From: an uncultured Gammaproteobacteria bacterium
GTDB lineage: Bacteria > Patescibacteriota > Microgenomatia > UBA8517
DNA: 64,000 bases
NCBI GenBank assembly: GCA_964599625.1
Contig: CAZRGC010000003.1
Location: 97,759-161,758 of the forward strand
Direction: 5' to 3'
The notes below the pieces were generated by a model, which saw only the letters and a list, made by a program, of their open reading frames with translations, was not told the DNA's origin and searched no databases. The translations under genes and the position numbers were made by a program. This document shows positions 12,583 through 49,890 of the stretch, one piece after another. The number at the start of each line of letters is the position of its first letter. Positions within the stretch are counted from its first letter, which is position 1.

Positions 12583-12936
12583 TTGAACATAAGATTACCC
12601 TACTGGATTACAGGGATTGCCTGGATCCTTATATTTATCTACCTGGGATACAACAACATCAACTACCTTTCCGGGCGCCCTAACACATATTTTGGCGGTG
12701 TCGAGGCCATGATTCTCGTCATGGGTGGTGTTGGTCTTGTTTTTTCGGTCTTTCAATTTAAGTATGGGCTTTTGGGAGTTGGCATCCTGATGCTGGTGTT
12801 CGCTGTATGTGGCGGGCTTGCGACAATTATCACATCGGTGAACCTGGAATACATGGTGCAGTATTTGAAAGGTTTGTCCTTTCTGGCTCACACCTCCCTT
12901 CCCAATTTTGTGGTTCTTTTTGACAAAGAAAGTTAA
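12583..12936 (+). CDS. Hypothetical integral membrane protein (TTG start)
   Basis: 117 aa with 3-4 predicted TM helices. Confidence 0.4.
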   Translation: MNIRLPYWITGIAWILIFIYLGYNNINYLSGRPNTYFGGVEAMILVMGGVGLVFSVFQFKYGLLGVGILMLVFAVCGGLATIITSVNLEYMVQYLKGLSFLAHTSLPNFVVLFDKES

Positions 12937-27731: not shown

Positions 27732-28511
27732 ATGTCTGGCCCCGATTCCCCTTTTCACTCAGACTCAAGTGTTTTCGAAACAAAAAACTCTCATATAGAC
27801 ACCCCTTTAGAGACAGTAATAAAAGCGGATTATTGGGCCAATTCACATTATCCTCAAATGTGGATAGCAAAACGCCTGGTTACAACGCACGCAGCTTTGG
27901 AACAGGTGCTTGCGGGAAAGTTGTTGTGGAGTGATTTTTCCACATCACAACTCCCCGACGTTTTTATTGAACCCCATATGAAAGAAAAGGCAAATAAAGC
28001 ACATGCTGCATATGGGCAACCTGCAATAATGGATCGTGATCTTAACAACCTGTGGAGGTCTGATGTAAGTGATGTATCAAATACACTTTGGAATTTGCTG
28101 CCCGACAAGGGAGACCCGTTGGAAATCCAAGACGTAACAATTGCCAAAGCCTTGAAAGACCCAAAAAATAAACAGTTTTTTGGGTCGTTGTTGGGTGTAT
28201 TGGCGGCAGAGAAGTCGGCCTTGGAAAGCCAGGAGTGCCTGGAGATATCAAAAGACCTGCGTGAGTCATTAAGAGACCTTCATCATAAAAAATTTGACCG
28301 CGGGTATAGTTTTTCTTTAAAGGAACAAGCTGACTTAAGGGTCAGATGGAACGCTATTTCAGACCGTCTCGAGTCTGTTTTGCAGCGGGAGCTTTCAAAG
28401 GCCAATCAAAAAGCAAAACTGATGCTTAACGATAGCCAATTGGAGTTTCTAACGCATCAAATCCATGTTGGTTCGAGAGTTGTGGCCAGTACGCCGATGG
28501 AGTCTTTTTGA
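27732..28511 (+). CDS. Hypothetical protein inserted between rpsG and fusA
   Basis: 259-aa ORF with no recognisable motifs. Occupies the position where fusA normally follows rpsG directly. Confidence 0.5.
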   Translation: MSGPDSPFHSDSSVFETKNSHIDTPLETVIKADYWANSHYPQMWIAKRLVTTHAALEQVLAGKLLWSDFSTSQLPDVFIEPHMKEKANKAHAAYGQPAIMDRDLNNLWRSDVSDVSNTLWNLLPDKGDPLEIQDVTIAKALKDPKNKQFFGSLLGVLAAEKSALESQECLEISKDLRESLRDLHHKKFDRGYSFSLKEQADLRVRWNAISDRLESVLQRELSKANQKAKLMLNDSQLEFLTHQIHVGSRVVASTPMESF

Positions 28512-30805: not shown

Positions 30806-31600
30806 ATGAATTTCTTTAAGAAAGTTGCTTCTAGTGTTTATTCCCCGGAGTTCTATTCCCAAATACCCAAAATGACACTTGGTTCTGTGTTGGGTTATTT
30901 TTTCTTGCTGCTTCTAGTGGTCGAACTTGTCATGTTTGGCAAAAGCATGCCGGAGTTTATGTTTGGTTTCTCAGGAAAGATAAAATCTACAATAAGCGAG
31001 GTTATCGACACTTATCCCAGTAATTTGGTTTTGACAATCAAAGATGGAGCGCTTTCCACCAATGTTAAGGAGCCTTACTACCTTATGGATAAAACCAACA
31101 ACAAGTTCGCGGTTATAGACACAAAAACTGCATACTCTGCCGATCAATTTAAAAAGTACAACGTACCGGTCTGGGTTACCAAAGATACTGTTTTTTACCA
31201 AGACAGCGACCAAATCAAGAGCAATAGTTTTGTAGAGATGAAAGATATGGTGGTAAACAAAGAACTTGTAAACAGTTTTTCTGCCAAAATATCTCCCTGG
31301 ATTCCATATTTTGGCCCTGTTGTTATGATTTTTGCACTCGTAACTCTTTACGCCCTCCAATCTTTCAGACTGGTTTATGGGTTTTTCCTTGCACTTTTAA
31401 TTTTGCTGGTTGCCAAAATGACCAAGAAAAGTCTGACGTATAAAGAATCTTACAAAGTAGGGATATTTGCCATGACACTACCCTTTATTTTAGAAGCGCT
31501 TAATACCTATATCGGTTGGAAGGCTTTTCCGTTCACTTTTACTATAATTGCACTTATTGTTGTTGGCGTAAATTTTGCAGGATCCAACTCGAAGAAGTAG
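30806..31600 (+). CDS. Hypothetical integral membrane protein inserted between fusA and tuf
   Basis: 264 aa with hydrophobic helices at the N- and C-termini (..LGYFFLLLLVVELVMF.., ..VMIFALVTLYAL.., ..IIALIVVGVNF..). Confidence 0.5.
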   Translation: MNFFKKVASSVYSPEFYSQIPKMTLGSVLGYFFLLLLVVELVMFGKSMPEFMFGFSGKIKSTISEVIDTYPSNLVLTIKDGALSTNVKEPYYLMDKTNNKFAVIDTKTAYSADQFKKYNVPVWVTKDTVFYQDSDQIKSNSFVEMKDMVVNKELVNSFSAKISPWIPYFGPVVMIFALVTLYALQSFRLVYGFFLALLILLVAKMTKKSLTYKESYKVGIFAMTLPFILEALNTYIGWKAFPFTFTIIALIVVGVNFAGSNSKK

Positions 31601-31754: not shown

Positions 31755-32945
31755 ATGGCAGACGCAAAACAAAAATTTGATCGCAGCAAACCACACGTAA
31801 ACATTGGTACTATTGGTCACGTTGATCACGGAAAGACAACCTTGACCTCTGCTATCACCATGGTTCTTGCCAAGCAAGGACTCGCCACAGCTAAGAAATA
31901 CGAAGACATCGATTCAGCCCCAGAAGAGAAAGAAAGAGGAGTTACAATCAACCTTTCTCACCAAGAATACCAAACAGCAAAAAGACACTATGCTCATATT
32001 GACGCTCCTGGCCATGCCGACTATATCAAGAACATGATTACCGGTGCAGCACAAATGGACGGAGCAATTCTGGTTGTTTCCGCAGCAGACGGACCCATGC
32101 CTCAGACAAGAGAACACGTTATTTTGGCCAGACAGGTTAACGTGCCAGCTTTGGTAGTTTTCCTCAACAAATGTGATACAGTTGATGATCCAGAAATTAT
32201 CGACTTGGTAGAAGCAGACGTAAGAGAACTTCTCAAAAAATACGAATACCCAGGAGATGAAGTTCCTGTAATTCGAGGTTCCGCTCTCAAAGCAGTCGAA
32301 GGCGACGCAGAAGCAGAAAAGAAGATCACAGAGCTCATGGATGCAGTAGACAGCTACATCCCTGATCCTGTAAGACAAACAGATAAACCTTTCTTAATGC
32401 CTGTTGAAGACGTATTTACAATTTCAGGACGCGGAACAGTTGTTACAGGTAGAGTAGAACGCGGAGTTATCAAAGTTAACGAAGAAATTGAAATAGTTGG
32501 TATCAAAGACACAGCAAAGTCAGTTGTCACAGGTCTTGAGATGTTCAGGAAGACTTTGGACGAGGCTATGGCAGGTGACAACGTTGGAGTTCTTCTAAGA
32601 GGTGTAGAAAAAGATCAAGTAGAAAGAGGACAAGTTCTCGCAAAGTCGGGAAGTGTTACTCCGCACACAGAATTTGAAGCAGAAGTTTATATTCTTTCAA
32701 AGGAAGAAGGAGGAAGACACACGCCTTTCTTTACAGGTTACAAACCTCAGTTTTATATTAGGACTGCAGATGTAACAGGAGAAGCAACACTCCCCGAAGG
32801 AATCGAAATGGTTATGCCTGGCGACAACGCTAAGATGAAAGTCAAACTTATTCAGCCAGTAGCTCTCGAGGAAGGTCTTAGGTTTGCAATCAGAGAAGGC
32901 GGACACACAGTAGGTGCAGGAGTTATCACCAAGGTACTTGTATAA
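31755..32945 (+). CDS. tuf: Elongation factor Tu
   Basis: [22 protein letters not shown]. 396 aa. Confidence 0.97.
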
Positions 32946-32985
32946 CCGCTAAAAGCTTTCACGCTTCTAGCTCTTTCATAAGGAT

Positions 32986-33291
32986 ATGGCAATTAGACTA
33001 AGAGTCAAACTTAAAAGTTATGACCACAGGGTCTTAGATGAAGCAGCCGGTAAAATTATAGATACCGCGCTATCATCTGGTGCAAAAATTGTCGGTCCTA
33101 TTCCTCTCCCCACAAACCGCAGCGTAATGGCAATCAAAGAATCACCATTTACGGACAAAGACGCTCAGGAACACTTTGAAGTTCTAACCCACAAAAGACT
33201 TATTGATATTTTGGACCCAACCCCCAGAACTGTTGATTCTTTGGGCAACCTCGACCTCCCTGCGGGAGTTTCTATCGAGATTAAGATGTAA
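32986..33291 (+). CDS. rpsJ: 30S ribosomal protein S10
   Basis: [34 protein letters not shown]-like signature. Confidence 0.95.
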
Positions 33292-33318
33292 GGCCTCTTG
33301 TTCGACCAAACCCCATAG

Positions 33319-33346
33319 TTGGAATAACTGAACTACCTGATATAAT
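33319..33346 (+). promoter_or_regulatory. Island promoter P1 (CCCATAGTTGGAA-16nt-TATAAT)
   Basis: TTGGAA 33319-33324, TATAAT 33341-33346. Shares the CCCATAGTT(T/G)G upstream motif with P2-P4. Confidence 0.5.
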
Positions 33347-33392
33347 GCCAATGTCTGAATTAAGTTAGATCTTTGTACAATCAAAAAGGAAT

Positions 33393-33701
33393 TTGACTAT
33401 GGATCCGATAAGAGTAGTTGTTGCAGTGGATGGCGACAAGGCAAAGTTCCACACCACTTTTCCGTTGGACGTGTATTTACCAGGACGACAAAAAAGGTCT
33501 GAAAAAGGCCAGGAGCTGGTAAACAAGTTGAAAGAGGTCAAGGGTATTAAAAACGAAGAGTTGGATATCTGGATCTACGAATATGAAATTTCGGCCAATA
33601 AGCTACACGCCTTTAAATGGAAGGATGAGGTCGCACCTGCTGTAGTTGAGGTTCTCAAGACCTTTTACAATCTCGGCACAGTCGAAATTGTATACGAATA
33701 A
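33393..33701 (+). CDS. Island ORF1, hypothetical protein (102 aa)
   Basis: ORF with its own promoter and downstream terminator. No recognisable motifs. Confidence 0.5.
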   Translation: MTMDPIRVVVAVDGDKAKFHTTFPLDVYLPGRQKRSEKGQELVNKLKEVKGIKNEELDIWIYEYEISANKLHAFKWKDEVAPAVVEVLKTFYNLGTVEIVYE

Positions 33702-33734
33702 TACCCTGTCCGAATATCTGTTGTGTTAGTTTTT

Positions 33735-33771
33735 GCTCCGCTTTGTGGAAATTTCCCGGGCGGAGTTTTTT
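33735..33771 (+). terminator. Rho-independent terminator, repeat-module copy 1 (GCTCCGC-loop-GCGGAG + TTTTTTGTGGC)
   Basis: 6-7-bp GC stem, 18-nt loop, T6 tract. Confidence 0.6.
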
Positions 33772-33793
33772 GTGGCCAACATTAGTCCCATAG

Positions 33794-33823
33794 TTGGATT
33801 TATGGTGGTTAATCTGCTAGAAT
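33794..33823 (+). promoter_or_regulatory. Island promoter P2 (CCCATAGTTGGAT-18nt-TAGAAT)
   Basis: Hexamers at 33794-33799 and 33818-33823. GGAGG RBS before the ATG at 33867. Confidence 0.45.
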
Positions 33824-33866
33824 CCGCTAGCACGTTGAATTATTACAGAACGTCCTTGGAGGAACA

Positions 33867-35015
33867 ATGATTCTTGGACTGAAATTAACTGTCGAAAACG
33901 ACGATATTGTCGACATTGGCGGAGATTTGTACGTCAAAAACTCCAAAGCCATGAAGCGTCTTCACAGGGAGCTTCGCTACCTGGGATACCAAATCGACAA
34001 CTTGCGGCACGATAAATACCGCTTGGACAAGGGAGCCACCCCGCGCGAAATGGAAAAAGGTGGTTGGTCGCTTTGGTTTGCCAAGTTACCCAATATCAGA
34101 CGTGGTGTCTGTGGAAGCTGTGGAGCAACCATTTCCACTCTCGGCATTCAGTCACACGGCCACAAATGCGAGAGGTGCGGCGAAGTGACCTACTGGGAAA
34201 TGGTGGAAGGATCAGTAATCCGGTTCGTCTTTTTGCAAAAAGAGGGCCGTGGAATGTGGGATCCCGAGCTTAAGATGAAAGTGCACCATTGGGATACGCG
34301 TGAAGGGCTTTTATATCTTTACCCGGAAGCCTTGGAAGGTGGCCTTTCGACTGTGACGGGAGATACAGCACGGCAGTACTTGGGCAATAACCACGAAAAG
34401 TGGAATGTAGTCACGATCGATGGCCAAAAAATTATCGTGATCAAGTACCCCAAGCAGTGGCGGCGCGATACGGCTGTTATCGAACCTTATGAGATTTACG
34501 GTCATCAGTGGAATCACAAGATCGTCAAAATCTACAAAGGTAAACATTACAGTGACTGGGACCGGCTCCCTGTTCCCGAGACATTTTCTATCTACGAAAC
34601 CTGGCACTGGGACAAGCTTGTGGCTTCGCCAACATTGCACAGGCGTGTATTGCAGGCTGTTCACAACACCGATGACAAGGGTTGGCACTACCAAGACGGT
34701 CGTCCCTGGTTTAGAGAAGGAAGCTGGAAGGGCATGGCAAAGTTTATTCGCCATTTTACAGCCCTTGATGCTGATGCCTTTGACCGAGCCTGGCCACGTT
34801 TCAGAAACGACGGTCCCGGCGGGATCGACGACTTGGCACACTTCTGTCACCCCAAAGCCATCACTCGTGATGAGCCAAACATAGGTAATGTTCTTGTTGC
34901 CATGGGGAAACGCATGGAAAATAAGTCTCTCACGCGCGATGAGATCGAAGCAGCCAAACGCGGCTTGAGCGATCCATTGACGGGTGATTTTTTACGTTCC
35001 CTGCGTAAGCGTTAG
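33867..35015 (+). CDS. Island ORF2, hypothetical Trp/His-rich protein with a Cys4 zinc ribbon (382 aa)
   Basis: CGSCG...HKCERCG cluster. Many W/H/Y residues. Higher local GC by eye. No family motif recognised. Confidence 0.55.
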   Translation: MILGLKLTVENDDIVDIGGDLYVKNSKAMKRLHRELRYLGYQIDNLRHDKYRLDKGATPREMEKGGWSLWFAKLPNIRRGVCGSCGATISTLGIQSHGHKCERCGEVTYWEMVEGSVIRFVFLQKEGRGMWDPELKMKVHHWDTREGLLYLYPEALEGGLSTVTGDTARQYLGNNHEKWNVVTIDGQKIIVIKYPKQWRRDTAVIEPYEIYGHQWNHKIVKIYKGKHYSDWDRLPVPETFSIYETWHWDKLVASPTLHRRVLQAVHNTDDKGWHYQDGRPWFREGSWKGMAKFIRHFTALDADAFDRAWPRFRNDGPGGIDDLAHFCHPKAITRDEPNIGNVLVAMGKRMENKSLTRDEIEAAKRGLSDPLTGDFLRSLRKR

Positions 35016-35028
35016 TTTTGGAGTCTCA

Positions 35029-35066
35029 CTCCGCCTTGTGGAAATTTCCCGGGCGGAGTTTTTTGT
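35029..35066 (+). terminator. Rho-independent terminator, repeat-module copy 2 (CTCCGCC-loop-GGCGGAG + TTTTTTGTGGC)
   Basis: 7-bp stem, 16-nt loop, T6 tract. Confidence 0.65.
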
Positions 35067-35087
35067 GGCTAAAATAAGCCCCATAGT

Positions 35088-35116
35088 TTGACATAACTTT
35101 GAACCTTTGATATATT
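35088..35116 (+). promoter_or_regulatory. Island promoter P3 (CCCATAGTTTGACA-17nt-TATATT)
   Basis: TTGACA 35088-35093, TATATT 35111-35116. Confidence 0.55.
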
Positions 35117-35156
35117 CACAAGGTTTATTTGCACATTATGGTTAAAAGGAGAGACT

Positions 35157-35660
35157 ATGGGAATTACCCATGCAGAGGGTGTTGACTTGCAAGAGTGGGC
35201 GAATGCTCACAAACCGGATGATGACTTGATTTACAGGGATGGTTATTGGCATCAAATCATCTTTGTCCGGGATCGCTTGCCACAGCCGCTTTTTGGCTCA
35301 TACGAAGAGTACAAAGCCAATCCGGTACGCGTGGTGGGTGATCATACAAGCAAATCAGTACTCCTTCCTGTTTACAGTATCAAATTTGCTCCTCTCGAAA
35401 TTCGGATGCGTTACAACTTTTACGACTGGAAAGTGAGTGTGGTATCTCAAGTTCCCATCAGGTCGAACTTTTACCCGTTCCTTTTTAGAGATGAAGCTGT
35501 GCACCCGGTTTATTTTGAGGGTTTTACCAATGACTGGGTTTTTGGCTCCTACTCTGCCGACAACACCAAATTTTCTGTTGAAATTAGCAACGAACACATG
35601 TTGTTCGCTTTCATGGCTATTTTAGCGGGTGATTTGGGCTTGGGAGGCAATAAGAAGTAG
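35157..35660 (+). CDS. Island ORF3, hypothetical protein (167 aa)
   Basis: GAGAG RBS. No recognisable motifs. Confidence 0.5.
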   Translation: MGITHAEGVDLQEWANAHKPDDDLIYRDGYWHQIIFVRDRLPQPLFGSYEEYKANPVRVVGDHTSKSVLLPVYSIKFAPLEIRMRYNFYDWKVSVVSQVPIRSNFYPFLFRDEAVHPVYFEGFTNDWVFGSYSADNTKFSVEISNEHMLFAFMAILAGDLGLGGNKK

Positions 35661-35672
35661 TTTGGAGCTCAA

Positions 35673-35710
35673 CTCCGCTTTGTGGAAATTTCCCGAGCGG
35701 AGTTTTTTGT
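35673..35710 (+). terminator. Rho-independent terminator, repeat-module copy 3 (CTCCGC-loop-GCGGAG + TTTTTTGTGGC)
   Basis: 6-bp stem, 18-nt loop, T6 tract. Confidence 0.6.
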
Positions 35711-35731
35711 GGCAAAAACAAGTCCCATAGT

Positions 35732-35761
35732 TTGACAAAGCCTCGAATATGGTTTTATAAT
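35732..35761 (+). promoter_or_regulatory. Island promoter P4 (CCCATAGTTTGACA-18nt-TATAAT)
   Basis: TTGACA 35732-35737, TATAAT 35756-35761. Confidence 0.55.
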
Positions 35762-35804
35762 CATCTGTTGTCAGAAATTTGTACTTTACAAAAAATAGCT
35801 TGGC

Positions 35805-35846
35805 AGGCAGCTTTTTACCCGTAAAATTTATGGTTGAAAAGCTGCC
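35805..35846 (+). promoter_or_regulatory. 10-bp stem-loop in the 5' UTR of island ORF4 (GGCAGCTTTT ... AAAAGCTGCC)
   Basis: Perfect inverted repeat with a 22-nt loop, about 75 nt upstream of the ORF4 ATG. Confidence 0.4.
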
Positions 35847-35922
35847 TACGGATGATAGTGAGGCGTATGGGAGCACTCCTAAAACAAAAACCAAATAAAA
35901 ATTAGAAAGTAACAGGAGCAAA

Positions 35923-36300
35923 ATGTCTCAATCTCAAAAGCGCGTTTCCGAACGCGAGGTACCCGAAGTCAATCCCAACAAGAGGTTTTTCCCAGACTTT
36001 CCTCTTTGCAACGACACGGCTACCCACACAAGCTATTCATACAGGAACAAGAAGGATGTCGGTGAAAAGGGTGTCGCCTTGGTAGAGGCTGTTTTGGCAA
36101 TCCACGGCGTGATCGATCTGACGATCTCAAAGAATGAACTTCGGGTCGTCAAACAACCTGCCCACACCTGGGAAGAGGTTACACCTTTGATCCACAATGC
36201 TTTCAGGCATGTTTACGGCGACGATATCAAATTTATCGGAGAAAACAAGGCTATTTTGGCCTACAGACGTCTCCGAGTTGCCATGAACGTGGCTAAGTAA
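35923..36300 (+). CDS. Island ORF4, hypothetical protein (125 aa)
   Basis: AGGAG RBS. No recognisable motifs. Confidence 0.5.
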   Translation: MSQSQKRVSEREVPEVNPNKRFFPDFPLCNDTATHTSYSYRNKKDVGEKGVALVEAVLAIHGVIDLTISKNELRVVKQPAHTWEEVTPLIHNAFRHVYGDDIKFIGENKAILAYRRLRVAMNVAK

Positions 36301-36315
36301 CATCAATGGCCTTCC

Positions 36316-36348
36316 GGCCCAAATCTCACAAGGTTTGGGCCTTTTTTG
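36316..36348 (+). terminator. Rho-independent terminator closing the island (GGCCCAAA-loop-TTTGGGCC + TTTTTTGTGGG)
   Basis: 8-bp stem followed by T6GTGG, the same tail as the three repeat-module terminators. Confidence 0.65.
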
Positions 36349-36353
36349 TGGGT

Positions 36354-36393
36354 TTGACCCGTGCTTGCGGCGTTTTGGTATATCTGATATAAT
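36354..36393 (+). promoter_or_regulatory. Putative promoter region re-initiating transcription into rplC (TTGACC ... TATATC / TATAAT)
   Basis: TTGACC 36354-36359. Candidate -10 hexamers at 36379-36384 and 36388-36393. A further small hairpin (GCGCCTTCCGAAGGCGC + T6) lies at ~36478-36500. Confidence 0.35.
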
Positions 36394-36539
36394 TCCGAAT
36401 AACAAATATGGTGGTTACAATGTTTGCTCAACCACGCTAAGTTAGTCTTTGGCAGATGCCTCACTGGCGCCTTCCGAAGGCGCTTTTTTGTTTAATGTCC
36501 TTCGACTCGCAAGAGCTCGCTCTAGGATCCAAAACAAAT

Positions 36540-37265
36540 ATGATCAACACAATTTTAGGTTCCAAGCTGAAAAACAGTCAAACCTTCTTGCAAGGGTTTA
36601 GGATTCCCGTGACCAAAATCATGGCAGGCCCCTGTACAGTCACTCAAATTAAGAAAATGGACAAAGATGGATATTGGGCAGTTCAGATCGGATTCGGTAC
36701 CAGACGCACCAAAGTTACTTCAAAAGCACTCCAAGGACACCTCAAACTAACAGCAAAAGAAAACCTTTTCCCCAGACATCTTAGAGAAATAAGATTAACA
36801 GAAGAACCCGAGTTTAAAGTAGGCGATACAATAAATGTCGCCGATATTTTTGCTGCAGGGGACGTTGTTGCTGTCACTGGGGTTTCCAAAGGCAAGGGAT
36901 TTGCCGGCGTTGTCAAAAGGCACGGTTTTCGTGGAGGACCCAGAACTCATGGACAATCTGACCGCGAACGCGCACCCGGATCAATCGGACAAACAACAAC
37001 ACCAGGCAGGGTCTACAGAGGCAAAAGAATGGCAGGAAGAATGGGTGGCGAACAAATAACCATCAAAAATTTGCATGTGGTATCAGTGAATGCAGACACC
37101 GGCGAGGTGGAAATTTCAGGACAGGTTCCGGGATCCGTTGGAACACTTCTTTCAATCAAAAAGATCAAAGCAGGCAGTCTTAAAGATTTGGAACACGAAA
37201 CAGTTGCTCAGGTAGTAGAAGGAGAAGGTGCTAAGGTTGCAGGTTCGGCACCAAAATCAGAATAA
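36540..37265 (+). CDS. rplC: 50S ribosomal protein L3
   Basis: L3 signature (..GVSKGKGFAGVVKRHGF.GGP..HG). Start placed at ATG 36540; the longer ORF-track start at 36456 would read through the leader hairpins. Confidence 0.9.
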   Translation: MINTILGSKLKNSQTFLQGFRIPVTKIMAGPCTVTQIKKMDKDGYWAVQIGFGTRRTKVTSKALQGHLKLTAKENLFPRHLREIRLTEEPEFKVGDTINVADIFAAGDVVAVTGVSKGKGFAGVVKRHGFRGGPRTHGQSDRERAPGSIGQTTTPGRVYRGKRMAGRMGGEQITIKNLHVVSVNADTGEVEISGQVPGSVGTLLSIKKIKAGSLKDLEHETVAQVVEGEGAKVAGSAPKSE

Positions 37266-44201: not shown

Positions 44202-44708
44202 ATGGCAAATTTTAACCGAACATATGCCGACCAGGCACCAAAAGAATATGAGGAGACAGTTGTTCAAATAAACAGGATCTCCAAAAAGACAAAAGGTGGA
44301 AACACAATGAGATTTTCTGCACTTATTGTGGTGGGCAACAGAAAAGGAAGAGTTGGGGTTGGTATGGCCAAGGCACACGACGTTAGAAACGCAATCCGAA
44401 AATCAATCGAGGCAGCCAAAAGAAATTTGGTGGACGTTCCTCTTACTGGAACAACCATCCCTTACTCAGTAAGCGAAAAGTATTCTGCAGCTAAAATTCT
44501 TTTGAAACCAGCACCCCCCGGATCCGGAATTATTGCAGGCGGACCAATGAGAGTTGTTTTGGAAGCGGCAGGAATCAGAGATGCAGTCGGAAAAATTTTG
44601 GGAACAAAGAATAAAATTTCTAATGTTTATGCGACACTCAAGGCGCTGGAGCAAGTATCACGCCTTGTTGTTATGAAGAAAAATGAGCCAAAAGCAGAAA
44701 CTAAATAA
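44202..44708 (+). CDS. rpsE: 30S ribosomal protein S5
   Basis: S5 dsRBD and C-terminal domain (..VVGNRKGRVGVGMAKA..). Confidence 0.95.
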   Translation: MANFNRTYADQAPKEYEETVVQINRISKKTKGGNTMRFSALIVVGNRKGRVGVGMAKAHDVRNAIRKSIEAAKRNLVDVPLTGTTIPYSVSEKYSAAKILLKPAPPGSGIIAGGPMRVVLEAAGIRDAVGKILGTKNKISNVYATLKALEQVSRLVVMKKNEPKAETK

Positions 44709-44710
44709 CT

Positions 44711-45118
44711 ATGAGCAAATTACCAAAAGTTGTAACAAAGTCAAAAAAGAGAATCGGTAGAGGTTTTGGAACCGGTAAAGGTGGACACACCACAAACCGC
44801 GGACAGAAGGGGCAAAAATCCCGTGGTTCCATTGGAGTTCTTTTCGAAGGAATGAAAGTCAAGAAGTCACTTCTTAAAAGACTTCCATTGCAGCGCGGAA
44901 AAGGAAAGTTCAAAGCCAACGGAAAACCGGTTATTGTTACCCTTACCGACCTGGATATTCTCCCAACCGGTAGTGAAATTACTTTAGATCTTTTGATCAA
45001 AGAGAACTTGGTCGACCCTATTTTAGGCCGAAAATTCGGAGTAAAAGTCTTGGGAGGAGGAAAATCTACCAAGAAATTTACTTTCAAAGTCCCAACTTCC
45101 AAATCTGTAGCCAAATAA
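44711..45118 (+). CDS. rplO: 50S ribosomal protein L15 (no rpmD/L30 between rpsE and rplO)
   Basis: ..GRGFGTGKGGHTTNRGQKGQKSR signature. rpsE is followed directly by rplO. Confidence 0.93.
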   Translation: MSKLPKVVTKSKKRIGRGFGTGKGGHTTNRGQKGQKSRGSIGVLFEGMKVKKSLLKRLPLQRGKGKFKANGKPVIVTLTDLDILPTGSEITLDLLIKENLVDPILGRKFGVKVLGGGKSTKKFTFKVPTSKSVAK

Positions 45119-45122
45119 ATAT

Positions 45123-45599
45123 ATGACAGAAAGTCCAACACCTGTTGGAGAAGAAGCAGAAAAACTACAAAAAACATCACTTTTAGTGATGTATTCACGC
45201 CAAGATATGGCAGATACAGCCCTTGAGGTAATAAAAGAACTTAGGGAAGCAGGTCTTAATGTCATCGATATAAACGATAAGATTGCAGATGGCTCGTGGG
45301 TGGGTGAGTCGGATAAAATATTGGAAAATACCCCAGCAGTTCTTGTTATTCCATCAAAATCCATAAAAGAAGATGGTTTGGTTAAGGACGCAGTTTACCG
45401 TGCCGACATGCTAAGGGTAGAAAAAAGAAAGAGAATCGTTCCAATATTTTTTCAGGCTAATGCAAATGTTTCGATAGGAGGCCTTGGCAGCCTTGCCGGA
45501 ATAAATTGGGACGGTGAGACAGAAGGGATTCAAAATTTTGATAAGACTGCAGCTTTCGGCCACCTCAAAACTTTTGTCGCCCAAAATACTAATTCATAA
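45123..45599 (+). CDS. TIR-like (TIR_2 / DUF1863-type) domain protein
   Basis: LLVMYSRQDMADTALEVIKELREAGLNVIDINDKIADGSWVGESDKILENTPAVLVIPSKSIKEDGLVKDAVYRADMLRVEKRKRIVPIFF follows the bacterial TIR pattern (xISYSxxD..AxxLxxxLxxAGxxVxxDxDIxxGxxW...AIxxSxxxLxxxSxxSxxSxW..E...A...KRIIPV). Confidence 0.55.
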   Translation: MTESPTPVGEEAEKLQKTSLLVMYSRQDMADTALEVIKELREAGLNVIDINDKIADGSWVGESDKILENTPAVLVIPSKSIKEDGLVKDAVYRADMLRVEKRKRIVPIFFQANANVSIGGLGSLAGINWDGETEGIQNFDKTAAFGHLKTFVAQNTNS

Positions 45600-45601
45600 A
45601 C

Positions 45602-46030
45602 ATGGAAACAATTAAACCTAACGGGTTTTTGACAAGCTTCGAGTTTGAGGGATTAAAACTTCCTGTGGAATACGTGAGAACAGATCAAGTTTGTGAGGGT
45701 GTAACTTGCGACGTTTACAAATTTTGGGGAGACAAAAAGAAGGACTTGGCGATAATAACAATACAACCTGACGCCAAAACACCACCCCAAAAAGTTTTGT
45801 CGGGAGAAAAAACAATCGAAGGATATATTTCGGGATCGGGTGTATTTACAGTGAAAAAGGACGACGGGGGTGAAGAAAGAATATTGGTAGAAGATAAGCC
45901 CACAGAGTACTTTTCAATTCAAGTAAACGTAGGGGACACAATGCAATGGAAAGCTTCGGAAGATTCTATTCTTACTGTTTTTGAAGTTTGCTACCCCCCA
46001 TACGAAGACGGCAGGTTTCAAAATCTTTAG
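45602..46030 (+). CDS. Cupin-like small beta-barrel protein (hypothetical)
   Basis: 142 aa. Alternating beta-strand pattern with a Gly-rich turn typical of cupin_2 folds. No metal-binding His motif identified. Confidence 0.35.
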   Translation: METIKPNGFLTSFEFEGLKLPVEYVRTDQVCEGVTCDVYKFWGDKKKDLAIITIQPDAKTPPQKVLSGEKTIEGYISGSGVFTVKKDDGGEERILVEDKPTEYFSIQVNVGDTMQWKASEDSILTVFEVCYPPYEDGRFQNL

Positions 46031-46045
46031 TGTTATACTTCCAAT

Positions 46046-46489
46046 ATGTCCCGCGATAGATTCAGACTTCTTGCAGCGTGTTACTTATTGCCAATAAAGG
46101 GGAAGAAAGTTCTTTTGTCCCGCCGTTTTAACACTGGCTGGAAGGATGGTTGGTATTCCTTGATTGCAGGGCATTTGGATGGCAACGAATCTGTAAGCGA
46201 CTCAATGATTCGTGAAGCGAAAGAGGAGTCTGGTATTGAAATTGCCAAAAAAGACTTGGTTCCTTTAACCTCCGTTCACCACAAAACAGAAGACTCAGAA
46301 TATGTGGACTTTTTCTTCGCAGTAAAAAAGTGGAAAGGTGAACCGCAAATCAAGGAGCCCAACAAGTGTGACGATATGTCCTGGTTTCCAATAGACAAAC
46401 TTCCGGAAAAATTACTTCCACACGTTAAGCAAATAATTCAAAACCTGGACTCCAATGTTCCTTTTTTTGAACACGGATGGAACAAATAA
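46046..46489 (+). CDS. NUDIX hydrolase
   Basis: Nudix box GHLDGNESVSDSMIREAKEESGIEI (Gx5Ex7REUxEExGU). Confidence 0.8.
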   Translation: MSRDRFRLLAACYLLPIKGKKVLLSRRFNTGWKDGWYSLIAGHLDGNESVSDSMIREAKEESGIEIAKKDLVPLTSVHHKTEDSEYVDFFFAVKKWKGEPQIKEPNKCDDMSWFPIDKLPEKLLPHVKQIIQNLDSNVPFFEHGWNK

Positions 46490-46504
46490 CTGCTAAACTA
46501 TTTT

Positions 46505-47476
46505 GTGGCTCAAAAAGAAGACGACTCCTACCAAAAATATCTTGAAGACAAACACTTGGCATTTGCAACGCCCGAAAGTCTGGTATCGTCTATGGTAAAA
46601 AAGGCAACGGGATCAGAACCCTTTTCTGTCGAAAAGTTGATTCAGGGTGAAGTGAACGAGGTTTATGATGTGGAGGCTGGTGGTCAAAATGTAATAGTAA
46701 GAATTTCCCGACAAGGACCGGAAAATTTTGAAACCGAAGAAACTGTAATACGCCTCGCTTTGCAAGCAGGTGTACCCGCTCCCAAAGTTCTTCTTTTGGA
46801 ATCTGCCTCAACCGAAACCGAAGAATTGACCTTTTGTATAGAAGAAAAGATTGAAGGAAAGCCATTGAAAGAATTACTAAAAACTCTGGACGCAGAAACT
46901 CTCAAGGCAATTCTGATTCAGTCGGGCGAGATATTATCCCGTATCCATTCATTGGAAACGGACAGATTTGGGCCCTTGGATAGGCAGGTCTTTTATCCTT
47001 CATGGACAGAATATTTATTCAGGAAGGAAGAAAATAAACGTGAGATAATTGAGTATGGCTCTAAAGTGGGACTCCTGCCCGGTGTTATAGATAAAGCCTT
47101 TTCTATACAAAGGAAAAACTCAGGAATTTTGGAAATACAAATCCCCTATATTCTGCACGGCGATTTTAGTCCCAAACACATTCTCACGAATGGAAAAACA
47201 GTCACTGGAATAATAGATTTTGAAGACGCCAAAGGAGGCGATCCGGTGAGAGATATTGCTTGGATGAACTTTTTTTATGGCGATTCGGTAAATCTTGAGT
47301 GGTTTTTAGAAGGATACGGAAGGGAAAAAACAGGAATGGACTTTGATATAAAAATGAGACTTTTGAAAGTTAACTTGGGACTGGACCTGTTGGATTATTA
47401 CGGATCAGAAGGTAATATTTCAGGACTTAAATACTCGAAACGTAAATTGGAGGAAGAGATGGAATTTTTCAAATGA
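46505..47476 (+). CDS. Phosphotransferase enzyme family (APH/choline-kinase-like) protein
   Basis: Brenner motif LHGDFSPKHIL (HGDxxxxN) and IIDFEDA (D-F/x-E metal-binding loop). N-terminal nucleotide-binding lobe. Confidence 0.7.
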   Translation: MAQKEDDSYQKYLEDKHLAFATPESLVSSMVKKATGSEPFSVEKLIQGEVNEVYDVEAGGQNVIVRISRQGPENFETEETVIRLALQAGVPAPKVLLLESASTETEELTFCIEEKIEGKPLKELLKTLDAETLKAILIQSGEILSRIHSLETDRFGPLDRQVFYPSWTEYLFRKEENKREIIEYGSKVGLLPGVIDKAFSIQRKNSGILEIQIPYILHGDFSPKHILTNGKTVTGIIDFEDAKGGDPVRDIAWMNFFYGDSVNLEWFLEGYGREKTGMDFDIKMRLLKVNLGLDLLDYYGSEGNISGLKYSKRKLEEEMEFFK

Positions 47477-47483
47477 CCCGACA

Positions 47484-48065
47484 ATGAATTCAAACACAAT
47501 AGTAATTTTGGGAACCCTGATTGGTGCAATTGGCTCGATCTTTTATCTTGTCGACGTTGTTAAGGGAAAAATAAAACCCAATCGGGTTTCTTTTATTCTT
47601 TGGTCACTCCCACCATTGATATCTGCATACGCAAATATTAAAAGTGGCGGTGGAATTGAATCTTTAATGACTTTTAGTGTTGGTTTTTTTCCACTGCTTA
47701 TATTTTTGGCAACTTTTCTCAACAAAAAATCCGTTTGGAAACTTACCAAATTTGATTTTGTTTGCGGCGCACTTTCACTTTTGGGATTCCTGCTTTGGCA
47801 GGTAACAAAAGAAGGATATTTGGCAATAACTTTTAGTATAGTTTCCGATTTTTTGGCTGGAATTCCCACCATAACAAAAACTTACAAACACCCAGAAACG
47901 GAACTGGCTTGGCCCTGGTTGATGCCGGTCTTGGGAGAAATTCTTACACTTTCCACACTTGGGGATATTACTTATCTCAACTCAGGTTTCATGATTTACG
48001 TAACTTTGTATAACACAGTCATTTTTCTTTTGGCGCAGTATAAAATCGGAAAGATATGGAAATAA
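47484..48065 (+). CDS. Hypothetical integral membrane protein (about 6 TM)
   Basis: 193 aa with alternating hydrophobic helices. No family motif recognised (PnuC-like was considered, not supported). Confidence 0.45.
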   Translation: MNSNTIVILGTLIGAIGSIFYLVDVVKGKIKPNRVSFILWSLPPLISAYANIKSGGGIESLMTFSVGFFPLLIFLATFLNKKSVWKLTKFDFVCGALSLLGFLLWQVTKEGYLAITFSIVSDFLAGIPTITKTYKHPETELAWPWLMPVLGEILTLSTLGDITYLNSGFMIYVTLYNTVIFLLAQYKIGKIWK

Positions 48066-48562
48066 TTAAACTACCTGTTTCAGAGTGGAAAAGTTATAAA
48101 GCAATAAGGCTTCGAGCTCTCAAGGAAGACCCTCAGGCATTTGGAGCCTCATACGACGATGCGGTCAAATTTGACGAGTCCGAATGGAGACGCAGGCTTG
48201 AAAATGCCGAAAATTCGGACAGAAGTTGGTTATGGTTTGCACAAGAAAACCAGAAAATTGTAGGCCTTATTGGGGCATATATGGAAAAAGGTGCAACAAA
48301 TGAGGCAACTATAGTTTCTGTTTTTGTTCCCAAGGAAGAAAGAGGGAAAGGAATATCGAGCCTTTTGATGGATAAGATGATATCCGAACTTTCAGCTAAA
48401 CCATATCTCAAAAAAATTAATTTGACTGTGAACAAAGACCAAGTAGCGGCCGTAAATCTTTATACAAAGTTTGGTTTCGTAAAAGTCGGTGAGCAAAATT
48501 TTAAAATGGGAAACGGTCAGAAGGCTGTGGAATTTGTTATGGAAAGACAAATTAGCACTTAA
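48056..48562 (+). CDS. GNAT family N-acetyltransferase
   Basis: Motif A region (..RGKGISSLLMDKMISEL..) and C-terminal ..NLYTKFGF.. typical of GNAT. Confidence 0.75.
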   Translation: MEIIKLPVSEWKSYKAIRLRALKEDPQAFGASYDDAVKFDESEWRRRLENAENSDRSWLWFAQENQKIVGLIGAYMEKGATNEATIVSVFVPKEERGKGISSLLMDKMISELSAKPYLKKINLTVNKDQVAAVNLYTKFGFVKVGEQNFKMGNGQKAVEFVMERQIST

Positions 48563-48606: not shown

Positions 48607-49890
48607 ATGTTTGAACAAATTTTGAATTTCTTCAAGAAAGCTGTAACCACACCTTCTATTAGGAAGAAGCTTCTGGTTACCGCGGTTATCCTTGTTGTAT
48701 TTCGTTTGGCAGGACATATCCCGGCCGCAGGAATAGATCGCAATACACTCACCGCACTCTTTTTGGGAAGCCCTCTTCTTTCGCTTTTGGATGTGTTTTC
48801 CGGAGGAACTCTTGCAAACTTTTCTATTTTGGCCTTAGGGCTTAACCCTTACATCAATGCATCCATTATTTTGCAGCTTTTGGGTTATGTAGTTCCATCG
48901 TTGGAAGCCTTGCAAAAAGAGGGTGAGTACGGCCAGGAGAAAATAAATCAGTACACAAGGCTTTTGACAGTGCCTCTTGCGGCTCTCCAGGCGTTTGGTA
49001 TGTACGCACTCCTTAAGGGGCAAAATGTAATTTCCAATCTTGCTCCTTTGGAACTTTTGGCTTTGGTGATTACGATGACAGCCGGAACTGTTTTCTCGGT
49101 TTGGTTGGGAGAGCTGATTAGCGAGTATGGATTTAAAAATGGAGTTTCCCTGCTAATTTTTACAGGAATAGTAGCAAGACTTCCTGTTGTTTTGGGACAG
49201 TCGGCCAGTGTTGTACAGTCGCAGGATATTCTGAAAGTAATTCTCTTCCTGGTTGTAGCAGCTTTGGTTGTGGGAATGATTATTTTCATAAGTGAAGCTT
49301 CCCGCAAAATCCCAATACACTATGCAAAAAGACGCACCGACACAGGTTTGGGGGCAACTTCCTATTTACCACTAAGACTCAATCAAGCAGGTGTGATTCC
49401 TATCATATTCGCGGTTTCATTGGTTTTGATACCTTCGCTTATGGGTCAGTTTTTGGCCAACATTCCAAATGCTGCTGTTGCGAATGCTGCCAGATTCATA
49501 AGTACTGCATTTAATCCCCAGTCTGTTGTCTATAACCTTACATATTTTGTTTTAGTGTTTGGTTTCACTTATTTTTATACAGCGGTTATTTTCAATCCGG
49601 ATAAAATTTCCGAAGATTTACAAAAAGGTGGAGGTTTTATTCCGGGAATCAGACCCGGAAAAGAAACATCCAAATATTTGTCTTTCGTTTTGTCTCGTTT
49701 GACAGTGGTTGGAGGAGTGTTTTTGGGTTTGGTTGCTGTCATGCCTTCTTTCTTTCAAAATTCGATTGGTGCCAGTAATTTAGCAATTGGAGGAACTGGG
49801 GTGTTGATTGTTGTTTCTGTGGCTTTGGAAATTGTCAGAGAAATGGAAGGTGAGTTGGTAATGGGTAAGTATGAAGGTTTTCTAAGATGA
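48607..49890 (+). CDS. secY: Preprotein translocase subunit SecY
   Basis: 10-TM SecY topology, ..[15 protein letters not shown].., ..[13 protein letters not shown].. motifs. Confidence 0.95.

What the first reader, a model, noticed from the sequence alone, without database searches (positions are those of the whole stretch)
33292..36539. Four-gene island of unknown function inserted between rpsJ (S10) and rplC (L3)
The rpsJ-rplC junction is among the most conserved gene adjacencies in bacteria. Here it is interrupted by ~3.2 kb carrying four ORFs (102, 382, 167 and 125 aa) that match no family I can recognise. Each ORF has its own near-consensus sigma70-type promoter and its own intrinsic terminator, like phage 'moron' cassettes. 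The coding DNA looks GC-richer by eye than the flanking r-protein genes. rplC is then re-promoted behind a final terminator plus leader hairpins. No mobility gene is present, so this is either a stably domesticated acquisition or a lineage-specific set of highly expressed accessory factors placed in the ribosomal operon.
Basis: partly seen in the sequence, partly recalled or inferred. Interest (0 to 1): 0.9.

Follow-up and report, generated by a model that had tools for sequence, protein, structure and literature searches.

The report
Variable gene-cassette hotspot after rpsJ
In one small clade of candidate-phyla-radiation bacteria, the normally unbroken junction between ribosomal genes rpsJ and rplC is a fast-changing docking site for separately promoted, phage- and mobile-element-type genes of unknown function.

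Summary
Four real + strand genes lie between rpsJ and rplC. Each has a Shine-Dalgarno site, a promoter-like site and a strong intrinsic terminator. Their GC3 is 0.50-0.56 against 0.37±0.04 for 65 other window genes.

It is not a four-gene unit. Four relatives (S10 87-98% identical) also carry genes directly after rpsJ (in L115 the contig ends before rplC), but each carries a different set. ORF2, ORF3 and ORF4 are each shared with only one or two of them. The nearest outgroup and 77 other bacteria have a gap of at most 149 nt.

That outgroup already has a promoter and terminator-bearing leader before rplC. The site is therefore an operon boundary, and rplC's "re-promotion" is ancestral.

The cargo comes from the mobile gene pool:
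- ORF3 belongs to a family found in 64 mostly huge-phage contigs.
- ORF2 has more than 100 homologues in these bacteria, never near ribosomal genes outside this clade and sometimes on serine-recombinase elements.
- ORF1 and ORF4 are Nfu_N-like.

ORF2 and ORF3 give confident models with no convincing known fold.

Island promoters in window, L021, L033 and L115 share a CCCATAG-TTGA box, with near-variants in L116. Terminator/promoter modules are repeated within three islands (window, L033, L115).

Best reading: an integrase-free accessory-gene hotspot. Function is unknown, possibly phage conflict.

The parts
32986..33291 (+). rpsJ (S10), the conserved left flank. It lies 40 nt after tuf with no terminator between them.
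   Evidence: PF00338 in the orthologous loci. 87-98% identical to S10 of L021, L033, L115 and L116.
33312..33346 (+). ORF1 promoter: CCCATAGTTGGA box (33312-33323), -35 TTGGAA, 16-nt spacer, TG-extended -10 TATAAT.
33399..33701 (+). ORF1, 100 aa from ATG 33399. Near-orphan and remotely Nfu_N-like.
   Evidence: AAGGA lies 8 nt upstream. GC3 is 0.495. Only 3 weak relatives exist among 1.84 billion representatives, and two of those match Nfu_N.
33724..33810 (+). Junction module copy 1: terminator hairpin 33735-33766 plus U6, then the CCCATAGTTGGA box (33787-33798). The ORF2 promoter follows: TTGGAT (33794-33799), 18-nt spacer, TAGAAT (33818-33823).
   Evidence: repeat family D1; -16.4 kcal/mol.
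33867..35015 (+). ORF2, 382 aa. A zinc-ribbon protein (C82 C85 H97 C101, C104) of a family specific to candidate-phyla-radiation bacteria (CPR), with no detectable known fold.
35017..35116 (+). Junction module copy 2: terminator hairpin 35028-35059 plus U6 and CCCATAGTTTGA box (35080-35091). Includes the ORF3 promoter, TTGACA-17-TG-TATATT (35088-35116).
   Evidence: -19.0 kcal/mol.
35157..35660 (+). ORF3, 167 aa. An alpha+beta protein of a family common in uncultivated huge phages.
35661..35761 (+). Junction module copy 3: terminator hairpin 35671-35704 plus U6 and CCCATAGTTTGA box (35724-35735). Includes the ORF4 promoter, TTGACA-18-TATAAT (35732-35761).
   Evidence: -17.9 kcal/mol.
35762..35922 (+). 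About 160 nt of 5' UTR before ORF4, with a long hairpin (35805-35847). A similar hairpin precedes the ORF4 homologue in L115.
   Evidence: inverted repeat I1; z -3.4; L115 sequence.
35923..36300 (+). ORF4, 125 aa. Nfu_N-like, below Pfam's cut-off.
   Evidence: PF08712 at 2.4e-5, 24.7 bits against a cut-off of 27. One homologue at 62% identity, also located after rpsJ. GC3 is 0.563.
36316..36347 (+). ORF4 terminator, which is the right end of the island.
   Evidence: 11-bp stem; -18.2 kcal/mol. A similar terminator closes the island in L116.
36365..36539 (+). Ancestral rplC promoter (TTGCGG-17-TG-TATAAT, -10 at 36388-36393) and leader. The leader has a GTGGTT/AACCAC hairpin and a terminator-like hairpin at 36466-36484 plus U6.
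   Evidence: Conserved in L021, L033 and L116, and in altered form in the island-free outgroup L035. No Rfam match.
36540..37265 (+). rplC (L3), the conserved right flank.
   Evidence: PF00297. 70-74% identical to the L3 of relatives.

Best explanation
This is an integrase-free hotspot for accessory genes. It sits in the spacer between the tuf-rpsJ transcription unit and the rplC-led ribosomal operon of one clade of candidate-phyla-radiation (CPR, Patescibacteria) bacteria.

Shown:
- The spacer is a natural operon boundary, because rplC has its own promoter and terminator-bearing leader even where no island exists. DNA placed upstream of that promoter does not have to disturb ribosomal gene expression.
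- The site holds single-gene cassettes, each with a strong ribosome-binding site, its own promoter and a strong terminator.
- The cargo is compositionally foreign. It belongs to families that otherwise occur scattered in CPR genomes, on serine-recombinase elements and in huge phages.
- Content turns over among relatives, while one gene (ORF2) has been kept vertically.

Inferred:
- Gain and replacement occur by RecA-dependent double crossover in the highly conserved flanking ribosomal genes after DNA uptake.
- Loss and shuffling occur by recombination between the repeated terminator/promoter junction modules.

Speculative:
- The products are small binding or inhibitor-type proteins used in conflicts with phages or other mobile elements.
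For: Hotspot:
- Five related genomes (S10 87-98% identical) carry five different gene sets directly after rpsJ: the window, L021, L116, L033 and L115.
- ORF2 is shared with L021 and L116 (69% and 64%), ORF3 with L033 (60%) and ORF4 with L115 (62%). All other genes are unique to one genome.
- The outgroup L035 (S10 81%) and 77 other loci have gaps of at most 149 nt.

Operon boundary:
- L035 has a promoter, hairpins and a terminator in its 149-nt spacer. The leader is conserved in four ingroup genomes.

Foreign origin:
- GC3 z-scores are 2.8-4.4.
- The ORF3 family appears in 64 IMG/VR contigs with GC 0.28-0.67. In subsets of 6-7 related loci, recurrent neighbours match phage topoisomerase II, helicase, SbcD and HNH families.
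- ORF2 homologues lie beside large serine recombinases and restriction-modification or ABC-type genes. None of 17 genome loci has rpsJ or rplC within up to 10 kb.

Vertical retention:
- ORF2 identities (L021-L116 75%, window 64-69%) follow the L3/L4 relationships.

Shared regulatory signature:
- CCATAG[CT]TTGA occurs only in these islands across 1.17 Mb of fetched DNA. It occurs 4 times in the island, against 0.49 expected for the whole window.

Repeated junction modules:
- Window 3 copies (75-85% identical), L033 3 copies (96%), L115 2 copies (98%).

Means of exchange:
- RecA is encoded in the window.
- Natural competence with homologous-arm integration has been demonstrated in Saccharibacteria (PMC10633639).
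- Hotspots free of mobile elements and flanked by core genes are known and are enriched in transformable species (PMC5635113).
- Small insertions at operon boundaries of the ribosomal supercluster are known (PMC8046335).
Against: - No recombination breakpoints or phylogenetic incongruence in rpsJ or rplC were tested, so the exchange mechanism is inferred only.
- Shared cassettes can be explained by an old island with differential loss, without repeated import.
- L033 carries a 10-codon duplicate of the S10 C-terminus, which points to at least one site-specific or single-crossover event.
- No cassette protein matches any PADLOC, PHROG, NCBIfam or Pfam model of known function, so the conflict role has no direct support.
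- Expression was not measured.
- Only five genomes were found, two of them as incomplete contigs.
Confidence: 0.7

Rival explanations
1. This is the decayed remnant of a site-specific integrative element (prophage, satellite or integrative mobilizable element) that targets the 3' end of rpsJ. The integrase and most of the element have been lost, leaving moron-like cargo.
For: - L033 holds an exact GAGVSIEVKM-stop copy of the S10 C-terminus, written with synonymous codon changes, 118 nt after the real stop. None of 2000 shuffles gives such a match. This is the kind of relic left by integration into a gene's 3' end.
- ORF2 homologues ride on serine-recombinase elements.
- ORF3 belongs to a huge-phage family.
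Against: - There is no recombinase in any of the five islands.
- No S10-end relic exists in the window, L021, L115 or L116.
- The islands are only 2.4-4 kb.
- The relic in L033 lies at the left end rather than next to rplC, where a displaced host 3' end should be.
- ORF2 divergence tracks the ribosomal proteins, so residence is long-term.
- The island promoters of the window, L021, L033 and L115 share one box, with near-variants in L116. That fits local evolution better than independent decayed elements.
Confidence: 0.15
2. These are lineage-specific translation or ribosome accessory factors, placed in the ribosomal cluster so that they are co-expressed with it.
For: - Position is between tuf-rpsJ and rplC, with strong Shine-Dalgarno sites and promoters.
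- ORF2 is retained vertically in three genomes.
- In L021 the first island gene overlaps the rpsJ stop codon (TAATG), so it is co-translated with S10.
Against: - Gene content differs in each of five close relatives.
- ORF2 homologues elsewhere are never near ribosomal genes.
- ORF3 homologues sit in phage genomes, beside replication genes in a subset of about 7 loci.
- Composition is atypical.
- Each cassette is insulated by its own terminator.
Confidence: 0.08
3. It is an integron-like cassette array in which the repeated hairpin modules act as recombination sites.
For: - All cassettes are in the same orientation.
- A conserved hairpin-containing repeat follows each of ORF1-3.
- Equivalent repeats occur in L033 and L115.
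Against: - No tyrosine-recombinase match appeared among the island genes or the roughly 27 other window ORFs scanned, or in the called genes of the related loci.
- Every cassette has its own promoter.
- The hairpins are followed by U6 and look like plain intrinsic terminators.
- The repeat sequence differs between genomes.
Confidence: 0.04

Closest known systems
Horizontal-transfer hotspots that lack mobile elements and are flanked by core genes (Oliveira et al. 2017, PMC5635113)
   Same: - A fixed interval between two core genes has different gene content in related genomes.
- No integrase or transposase is present.
- Homologous recombination in the flanking genes is proposed as the mechanism, especially in naturally transformable bacteria.
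   Different: - Here the flanks are two genes of the canonical S10 operon.
- The cargo is organised as insulated single-gene cassettes with a shared promoter box and repeated terminator modules.
- Recombination in the flanks was not tested.
[quoted passage not shown]
   Same: A few genes invade an inter-operon spacer of the ribosomal supercluster without separating the operons.
   Different: - The boundary is shifted by one gene: rpsJ stays with tuf, and rplC starts the next unit.
- The inserted genes are not housekeeping genes fixed in a large clade. They are uncharacterised, phage- or mobile-element-type genes that differ between close relatives.
Phage morons (independent promoter-gene-terminator units inserted between conserved phage genes; from established knowledge of lambdoid phage genomics)
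   Same: - One gene has its own sigma-70-type promoter and its own intrinsic terminator.
- Base composition is atypical.
- The unit sits between genes that are adjacent in relatives.
- One cargo family is phage-borne.
   Different: The units sit in a cellular chromosome between ribosomal genes, not in a prophage. There are several in tandem, sharing promoter and terminator modules.
Variable anti-phage hotspots in P2-like phages and P4-like satellites (Rousset et al. 2022, PMC9122126; title and abstract only, seen)
   Same: A fixed locus between conserved genes holds rapidly exchanging small cargo.
   Different: Those hotspots lie inside mobile elements, and their cargo has been shown to be defensive. 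Here no defence function has been shown, and PADLOC gives no hit.

Membership tests
Mobile-element-free horizontal-transfer hotspot flanked by core genes | The interval is bounded by the same two core genes in related genomes. | tested here: met
   rpsJ on the left and rplC on the right in the window, L021, L033 and L116. L115 has rpsJ on the left and the contig ends before the right flank.
Mobile-element-free horizontal-transfer hotspot flanked by core genes | Gene content differs among related genomes. | tested here: met
   Five genomes hold five gene sets. An all-against-all BLASTP finds only ORF2, ORF3, ORF4 and the 61-aa membrane peptide shared.
Mobile-element-free horizontal-transfer hotspot flanked by core genes | No integrase or transposase in the interval. 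| tested here: met
   Pfam, PHROGs and PADLOC scans of the island proteins and the precomputed Pfam hits.
Mobile-element-free horizontal-transfer hotspot flanked by core genes | Excess homologous recombination or phylogenetic incongruence in the flanking core genes. | not tested
   This needs many complete genomes of the clade. Only five partial loci were available.
Inter-operon insertion in the ribosomal supercluster | The insertion lies between two transcription units rather than inside one. | tested here: met
   A promoter and a terminator-bearing leader precede rplC in the window, L021, L033 and L116, and also in the island-free outgroup L035. This rests on sequence only. No transcript data were available.
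Phage moron | The gene has its own promoter and its own terminator. | tested here: met
   The ORF2 promoter is weak by consensus (8/12).
Phage moron | The unit resides in a phage or prophage genome. | tested here: not met
   The flanks are tuf-rpsJ and rplC-rplD. No phage structural or integration genes were found among the window ORFs that were scanned.
Integron | An adjacent IntI tyrosine recombinase with attI. | tested here: not met
   No recombinase match among the scanned window ORFs (the island genes plus about 27 others). Not every ORF was scanned.
Integron | Promoterless cassettes separated by attC sites. | tested here: not met
   Each cassette has a promoter. The repeated hairpins carry U6 tails typical of terminators.
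Site-specific genomic island or prophage remnant | Direct att repeats that duplicate the end of the target gene at both island borders. | tested here: not met
   No rpsJ-end duplicate in the window, L021, L115 or L116. L033 has a single relic at 1349-1381.
Nfu_N domain (PF08712), for ORF4 and ORF1 | Score at or above Pfam's gathering threshold (27 bits). | tested here: not met
   ORF4 scores 24.7 bits, E 2.4e-5. ORF1 is linked only transitively, through P0163 and P0164. No direct ORF1-ORF4 alignment was found.
Known anti-phage defence systems (PADLOC 2.0) | A match to a defence-protein model. | tested here: not met
   No hit for ORF1-4 at E up to 0.1.
Described ribosomal-protein leaders (Rfam 15), for the rplC leader | A covariance-model match. 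| tested here: not met
   Only two sub-threshold, unrelated sRNA hits in 32900-36700.

The most novel reading that the evidence does not exclude
In this clade, operon boundaries of the ribosomal supercluster (rpsJ-rplC, rplO-secY and perhaps rpsG-fusA) serve as dedicated high-expression docking sites for captured genes.

Under this reading:
- A portable junction module, made of a strong terminator plus a CCCATAG-TTGA promoter, insulates and drives each captured phage or mobile-element gene.
- The module also provides the homology for shuffling cassettes. That would make it an integrase-free analogue of a cassette array.
- The cargo consists of previously unknown anti-phage or anti-defence proteins, including two confident structure models with no known fold.
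Probability: 0.15. Interest if true: 0.8.

Novelty: new variant of a known kind. Interest (0 to 1): 0.55.

Why it matters
- It shows that one of the most conserved gene adjacencies in bacteria can become a site of rapid gene turnover. It also explains why this is tolerated: in this lineage the junction is an operon boundary.
- It points to two uncharacterised protein families shared between CPR bacteria, their mobile elements and huge phages. Both give high-confidence structure models with no known fold, so they are candidates for new conflict or host-takeover functions.
- It identifies natural sites with an insulated promoter and terminator next to rpsJ. These could serve as expression landing pads, now that genetic manipulation of these bacteria is possible.
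- A second variable insertion in the same window (TIR, NUDIX, APH and GNAT genes between rplO and secY) suggests the behaviour is general for this clade's ribosomal cluster.

Tried and rejected
- Curated libraries gave nothing for ORF1-4: Pfam, PHROGs, NCBIfam and PADLOC. The only exception is the sub-threshold Nfu_N hit for ORF4.
- PDB sequence profile searches with the ORF2 and ORF3 alignments gave nothing below E 0.1.
- Foldseek against BFVD gave nothing for ORF2. The afdb50 library was unavailable.
- tblastn of ORF2, ORF3 and two viral ORF3 homologues against 50,697 GenBank phage records gave no match.
- No conserved neighbour of ORF2 was found across 22 loci, so guilt by association fails.
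- Rfam gave no family in the island or in the rplC leader.
- Five leader sequences gave no compensatory pairs, so the leader structure remains untested.
- The window's terminator module is absent from IMG/VR. The island promoter pattern gave one IMG/VR match with no homology to any island or flanking protein, which I judge to be chance.
- The metagenome scan with S10 returned only one close relative, the outgroup L035, so the clade is poorly sampled there.
- The source organism's NCBI record could not be retrieved. Assignment to CPR rests on the ORF2 and ORF3 homologue names and on the absence of a gene between S5 and L15. I assigned S5 by position only, not by a scan.

Full report
**What is there**

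The window carries the usual cluster rpoB-rpoC-rpsL-rpsG-fusA-tuf-rpsJ-rplC-rplD and onward, all on the + strand. rpoB, rpoC, rpsL and rpsG were assigned by ORF size and by position matching the annotated relative L021. The others were confirmed by scans or tblastn.

Between rpsJ (32986-33291) and rplC (36540-37265) lie four ORFs:
- ORF1, 33399-33701. ATG 33399 with AAGGA 8 nt upstream is a better start than TTG 33393.
- ORF2, 33867-35015.
- ORF3, 35157-35660.
- ORF4, 35923-36300.

Each has a strong Shine-Dalgarno sequence. Promoter-like sites precede each one. ORF4 scores 12/12, ORF3 11/12 with TG, ORF1 10/12 with TG, and ORF2 only 8/12. Each ORF is followed by a hairpin of -16.4 to -19 kcal/mol and a U6 tract.

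GC3 of the four genes is 0.50-0.56, against 0.371±0.044 for 65 other genes in the window (z 2.8-4.4).

The region is not an assembly artefact. Unitigs from other sequencing runs reproduce 33742-35065 at 99.9-100% identity and end inside the repeated terminators. Another reproduces ORF3-ORF4-L3-L4-L23.

**Repeated regulatory modules**

An 87-nt unit occurs three times, at 33724, 35017 and 35661, with 75-85% identity. It consists of a terminator hairpin, U6, GTGG, a spacer and the box CCCATAGTTKGA, which overlaps the -35 hexamer.

The box occurs a fourth time just after rpsJ (33312). All four exact matches in the 64-kb window lie in the island. The only other match (one mismatch, - strand, 8927) lies outside. 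The expectation is 0.49.

**Is the junction normally unbroken?**

Yes. In 78 metagenomic loci that contain both S10 and L3, the gap is -6 to 149 nt.

The nearest outgroup found is L035 (S10 81%, EF-Tu 85% identical), with a 149-nt gap. That gap already contains a TG-extended promoter, hairpins and a terminator-like hairpin with a U-tract before rplC.

The same leader is conserved upstream of rplC in the window, L021, L033 and L116. It has a GTGGTT/AACCAC hairpin, then GGCGCC...GGCGC plus U6. rpsJ follows tuf by 40 nt with no terminator.

So in this lineage rpsJ-rplC is an operon boundary, and rplC's own promoter and leader are ancestral rather than a repair after insertion. Small insertions at operon boundaries of the ribosomal supercluster are documented in Gammaproteobacteria and Bacilli (PMC8046335).

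**A hotspot, not one island**

Contigs that encode homologues of the island genes revealed four relatives with genes directly after rpsJ:

| Genome | S10 identity to window | Genes after rpsJ |
|---|---|---|
| L021 | 92% | 139 aa (start overlaps the rpsJ stop), 61-aa 2-TM peptide, ORF2 homologue (69%), 80-aa membrane protein |
| L116 | 98% (over 90 aa) | 61-aa peptide, ORF2 homologue (64%), 80 aa, 158 aa |
| L033 | 87% | 156 aa, 128 aa, ORF3 homologue (60%), DUF7919, 61-aa peptide, 293 aa |
| L115 | 91% | 126 aa, 109 aa, ORF4 homologue (62%), then two minus-strand membrane ORFs; contig ends |

An all-against-all BLASTP finds no other shared genes.

By L3 and L4 identity the order of relationship is (L021, L116), then the window, then L033. 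ORF2 identities are congruent with that order (75% against 64-69%). ORF2 has therefore been inherited in place since before these three lineages split. The genes unique to one genome require gains, or an implausibly large ancestral island.

**Shared signature of the islands**

The motif CCATAG[CT]TTGA occurs only at island promoters across 1.17 Mb of fetched loci. It is found in the window, L021/22/23, L033/34 and L115. L116 has near-variants.

L033 holds three copies of its own terminator module (96% identical) and two of its promoter module. L115 holds two copies of a different terminator (98%).

High similarity within a genome alongside divergence between genomes suggests local duplication or gene conversion. 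Direct repeats of this kind also provide substrates for cassette loss.

**Where the cargo comes from**

ORF2:
- It has 102 detected homologues, none with a Pfam domain. The few that carry source names are CPR (Woesebacteria, Paceibacterota, Magasanikbacteria, Parcubacteria). Among the genome loci, two come from bins labelled Woesearchaeota.
- In 17 species-representative genome loci, none has rpsJ, rplC or an ORF1, ORF3 or ORF4 homologue within up to 10 kb.
- Known contexts include a core-like site between VanW and Lon in a complete Woesebacteria chromosome, and islands with a large serine recombinase, DUF5659, a LexA-like repressor, RhuM, restriction-modification or ABC-type genes.
- Two IMG/VR contigs carry it.
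- No conserved neighbour exists.

ORF3:
- It has 56 homologues in the protein search.
- It appears at 64 loci in IMG/VR, mostly on contigs of 50-670 kb with GC 0.28-0.67.
- In subsets of 6-7 related loci, recurrent neighbours match phage topoisomerase II subunits, a helicase, SbcD, HNH, QueD and a methyltransferase.
- It is therefore largely a family of uncultivated huge phages. It is absent from GenBank phage records.

ORF4 has a single homologue and a sub-threshold Nfu_N match. ORF1 is a near-orphan whose only distant relatives match Nfu_N.

**Structures**

AlphaFold2 models are confident: ORF2 pLDDT 92.7 and ORF3 pLDDT 93.3.

**Mechanism**

Shown:
- The site is an operon boundary.
- It holds insulated monocistronic cassettes.
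- The cargo is compositionally foreign and of phage or mobile-element type.
- Content turns over among relatives while ORF2 is retained vertically.
- There is no mobility gene in any of the five islands.

Inferred:
- Exchange occurs by double crossover in the very conserved flanking genes after DNA uptake. RecA is present. Natural competence with integration through about 1-kb homology arms has been shown in Saccharibacteria (PMC10633639). Hotspots free of mobile elements, with recombining core flanks, are enriched in transformable bacteria (PMC5635113).
- The repeated junction modules probably add duplication and deletion dynamics.

A rival is site-specific integration into the rpsJ 3' end. 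L033 carries an exact GAGVSIEVKM-stop duplicate of the S10 C-terminus with synonymous differences, and none of 2000 shuffles gives such a match. No other island has such a relic, however, and none has an integrase.

A ribosome-factor role is unlikely, given the variable content and the unrelated contexts of homologues elsewhere.

A role in phage conflict is plausible but unsupported: there are no PADLOC hits.

**Verdict**

This is a new variant of two known kinds of event: a mobile-element-free hotspot flanked by core genes, and an inter-operon insertion in the ribosomal supercluster.

It is notable for four things:
- its position inside the canonical S10 operon;
- its cassette architecture with a clade-specific promoter box;
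- its structurally novel cargo linked to huge phages;
- a second variable insertion at rplO-secY in the same window.

Noticed in passing
window 45123-48562: The ribosomal cluster is interrupted a second time. Six + strand genes lie between rplO/L15 (44711-45118) and secY (48607-49890): a TIR-domain protein (158 aa), an unknown (142 aa), a NUDIX protein (147 aa, which hits the PADLOC candidate PDC-S07 at 1.8e-9), an APH-family phosphotransferase (323 aa), an unknown (193 aa) and a GNAT acetyltransferase (168 aa). In the outgroup L035 the L15-SecY gap is 119 nt. The relative L021 has unrelated genes after L15. This junction therefore also looks variable.
   Followed up: partly
window 27732-28511 and 30806-31600: There are extra genes at two more junctions of the str region. 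An unknown 259-aa ORF lies between rpsG and fusA. L021 has an unrelated 124-aa membrane ORF at the same place. A DUF1189 membrane protein lies between fusA and tuf, and this one is conserved in L021 at 54% identity.
   Followed up: partly
window 36394-36539; L021 11520-11650; L033 5146-5283; L116 2786-2869; L035 10349-10453: A conserved leader precedes rplC, with a 5' hairpin and a terminator-like hairpin plus U-tract. This is a candidate attenuator for the rplC-led operon, and it has no Rfam match. Five sequences gave no compensatory pairs, so the structure is untested.
   Followed up: partly
L033 1349-1381: A 10-codon duplicate of the S10 C-terminus plus a stop codon (GAGVSIEVKM*), with synonymous differences, lies 118 nt downstream of the real rpsJ stop. 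None of 2000 shuffles reaches this match. It may be a relic of integration or of single-crossover import.
   Followed up: partly
window 35762-35922; L115 about 1560-1742: ORF4 has a 5' UTR of about 160 nt with a long, stable hairpin (35805-35847, z -3.4). A hairpin with similar arms precedes the ORF4 homologue in L115. It may be a regulatory RNA element, but only two sequences are available.
   Followed up: partly
L021 9806-9991; L033 3880-4065; L116 about 379-564: A conserved 61-aa two-helix membrane peptide sits directly behind a CCCATAG-type promoter in three islands. It is followed by ORF2 plus an 80-aa membrane protein in L021 and L116, but by an unrelated 293-aa protein in L033. The window has lost it.
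   Followed up: partly
window 12583-12936: A 117-aa TTG-start ORF has GC3 0.54, the only ORF outside the island with island-like composition. No family matches above any curated cut-off (only a 15-bit NCBIfam hit, E 0.006). It may be another foreign gene or may not be a gene at all.
   Followed up: no
window 44202-45118: No ORF lies between the ORF I take to be rpsE/S5 (44202-44708, assigned by position only) and rplO/L15 (44711-45118, Pfam match). If the S5 call is right, L30 is missing, which fits a CPR origin for the window (the link to CPR rests on my own knowledge).
   Followed up: no
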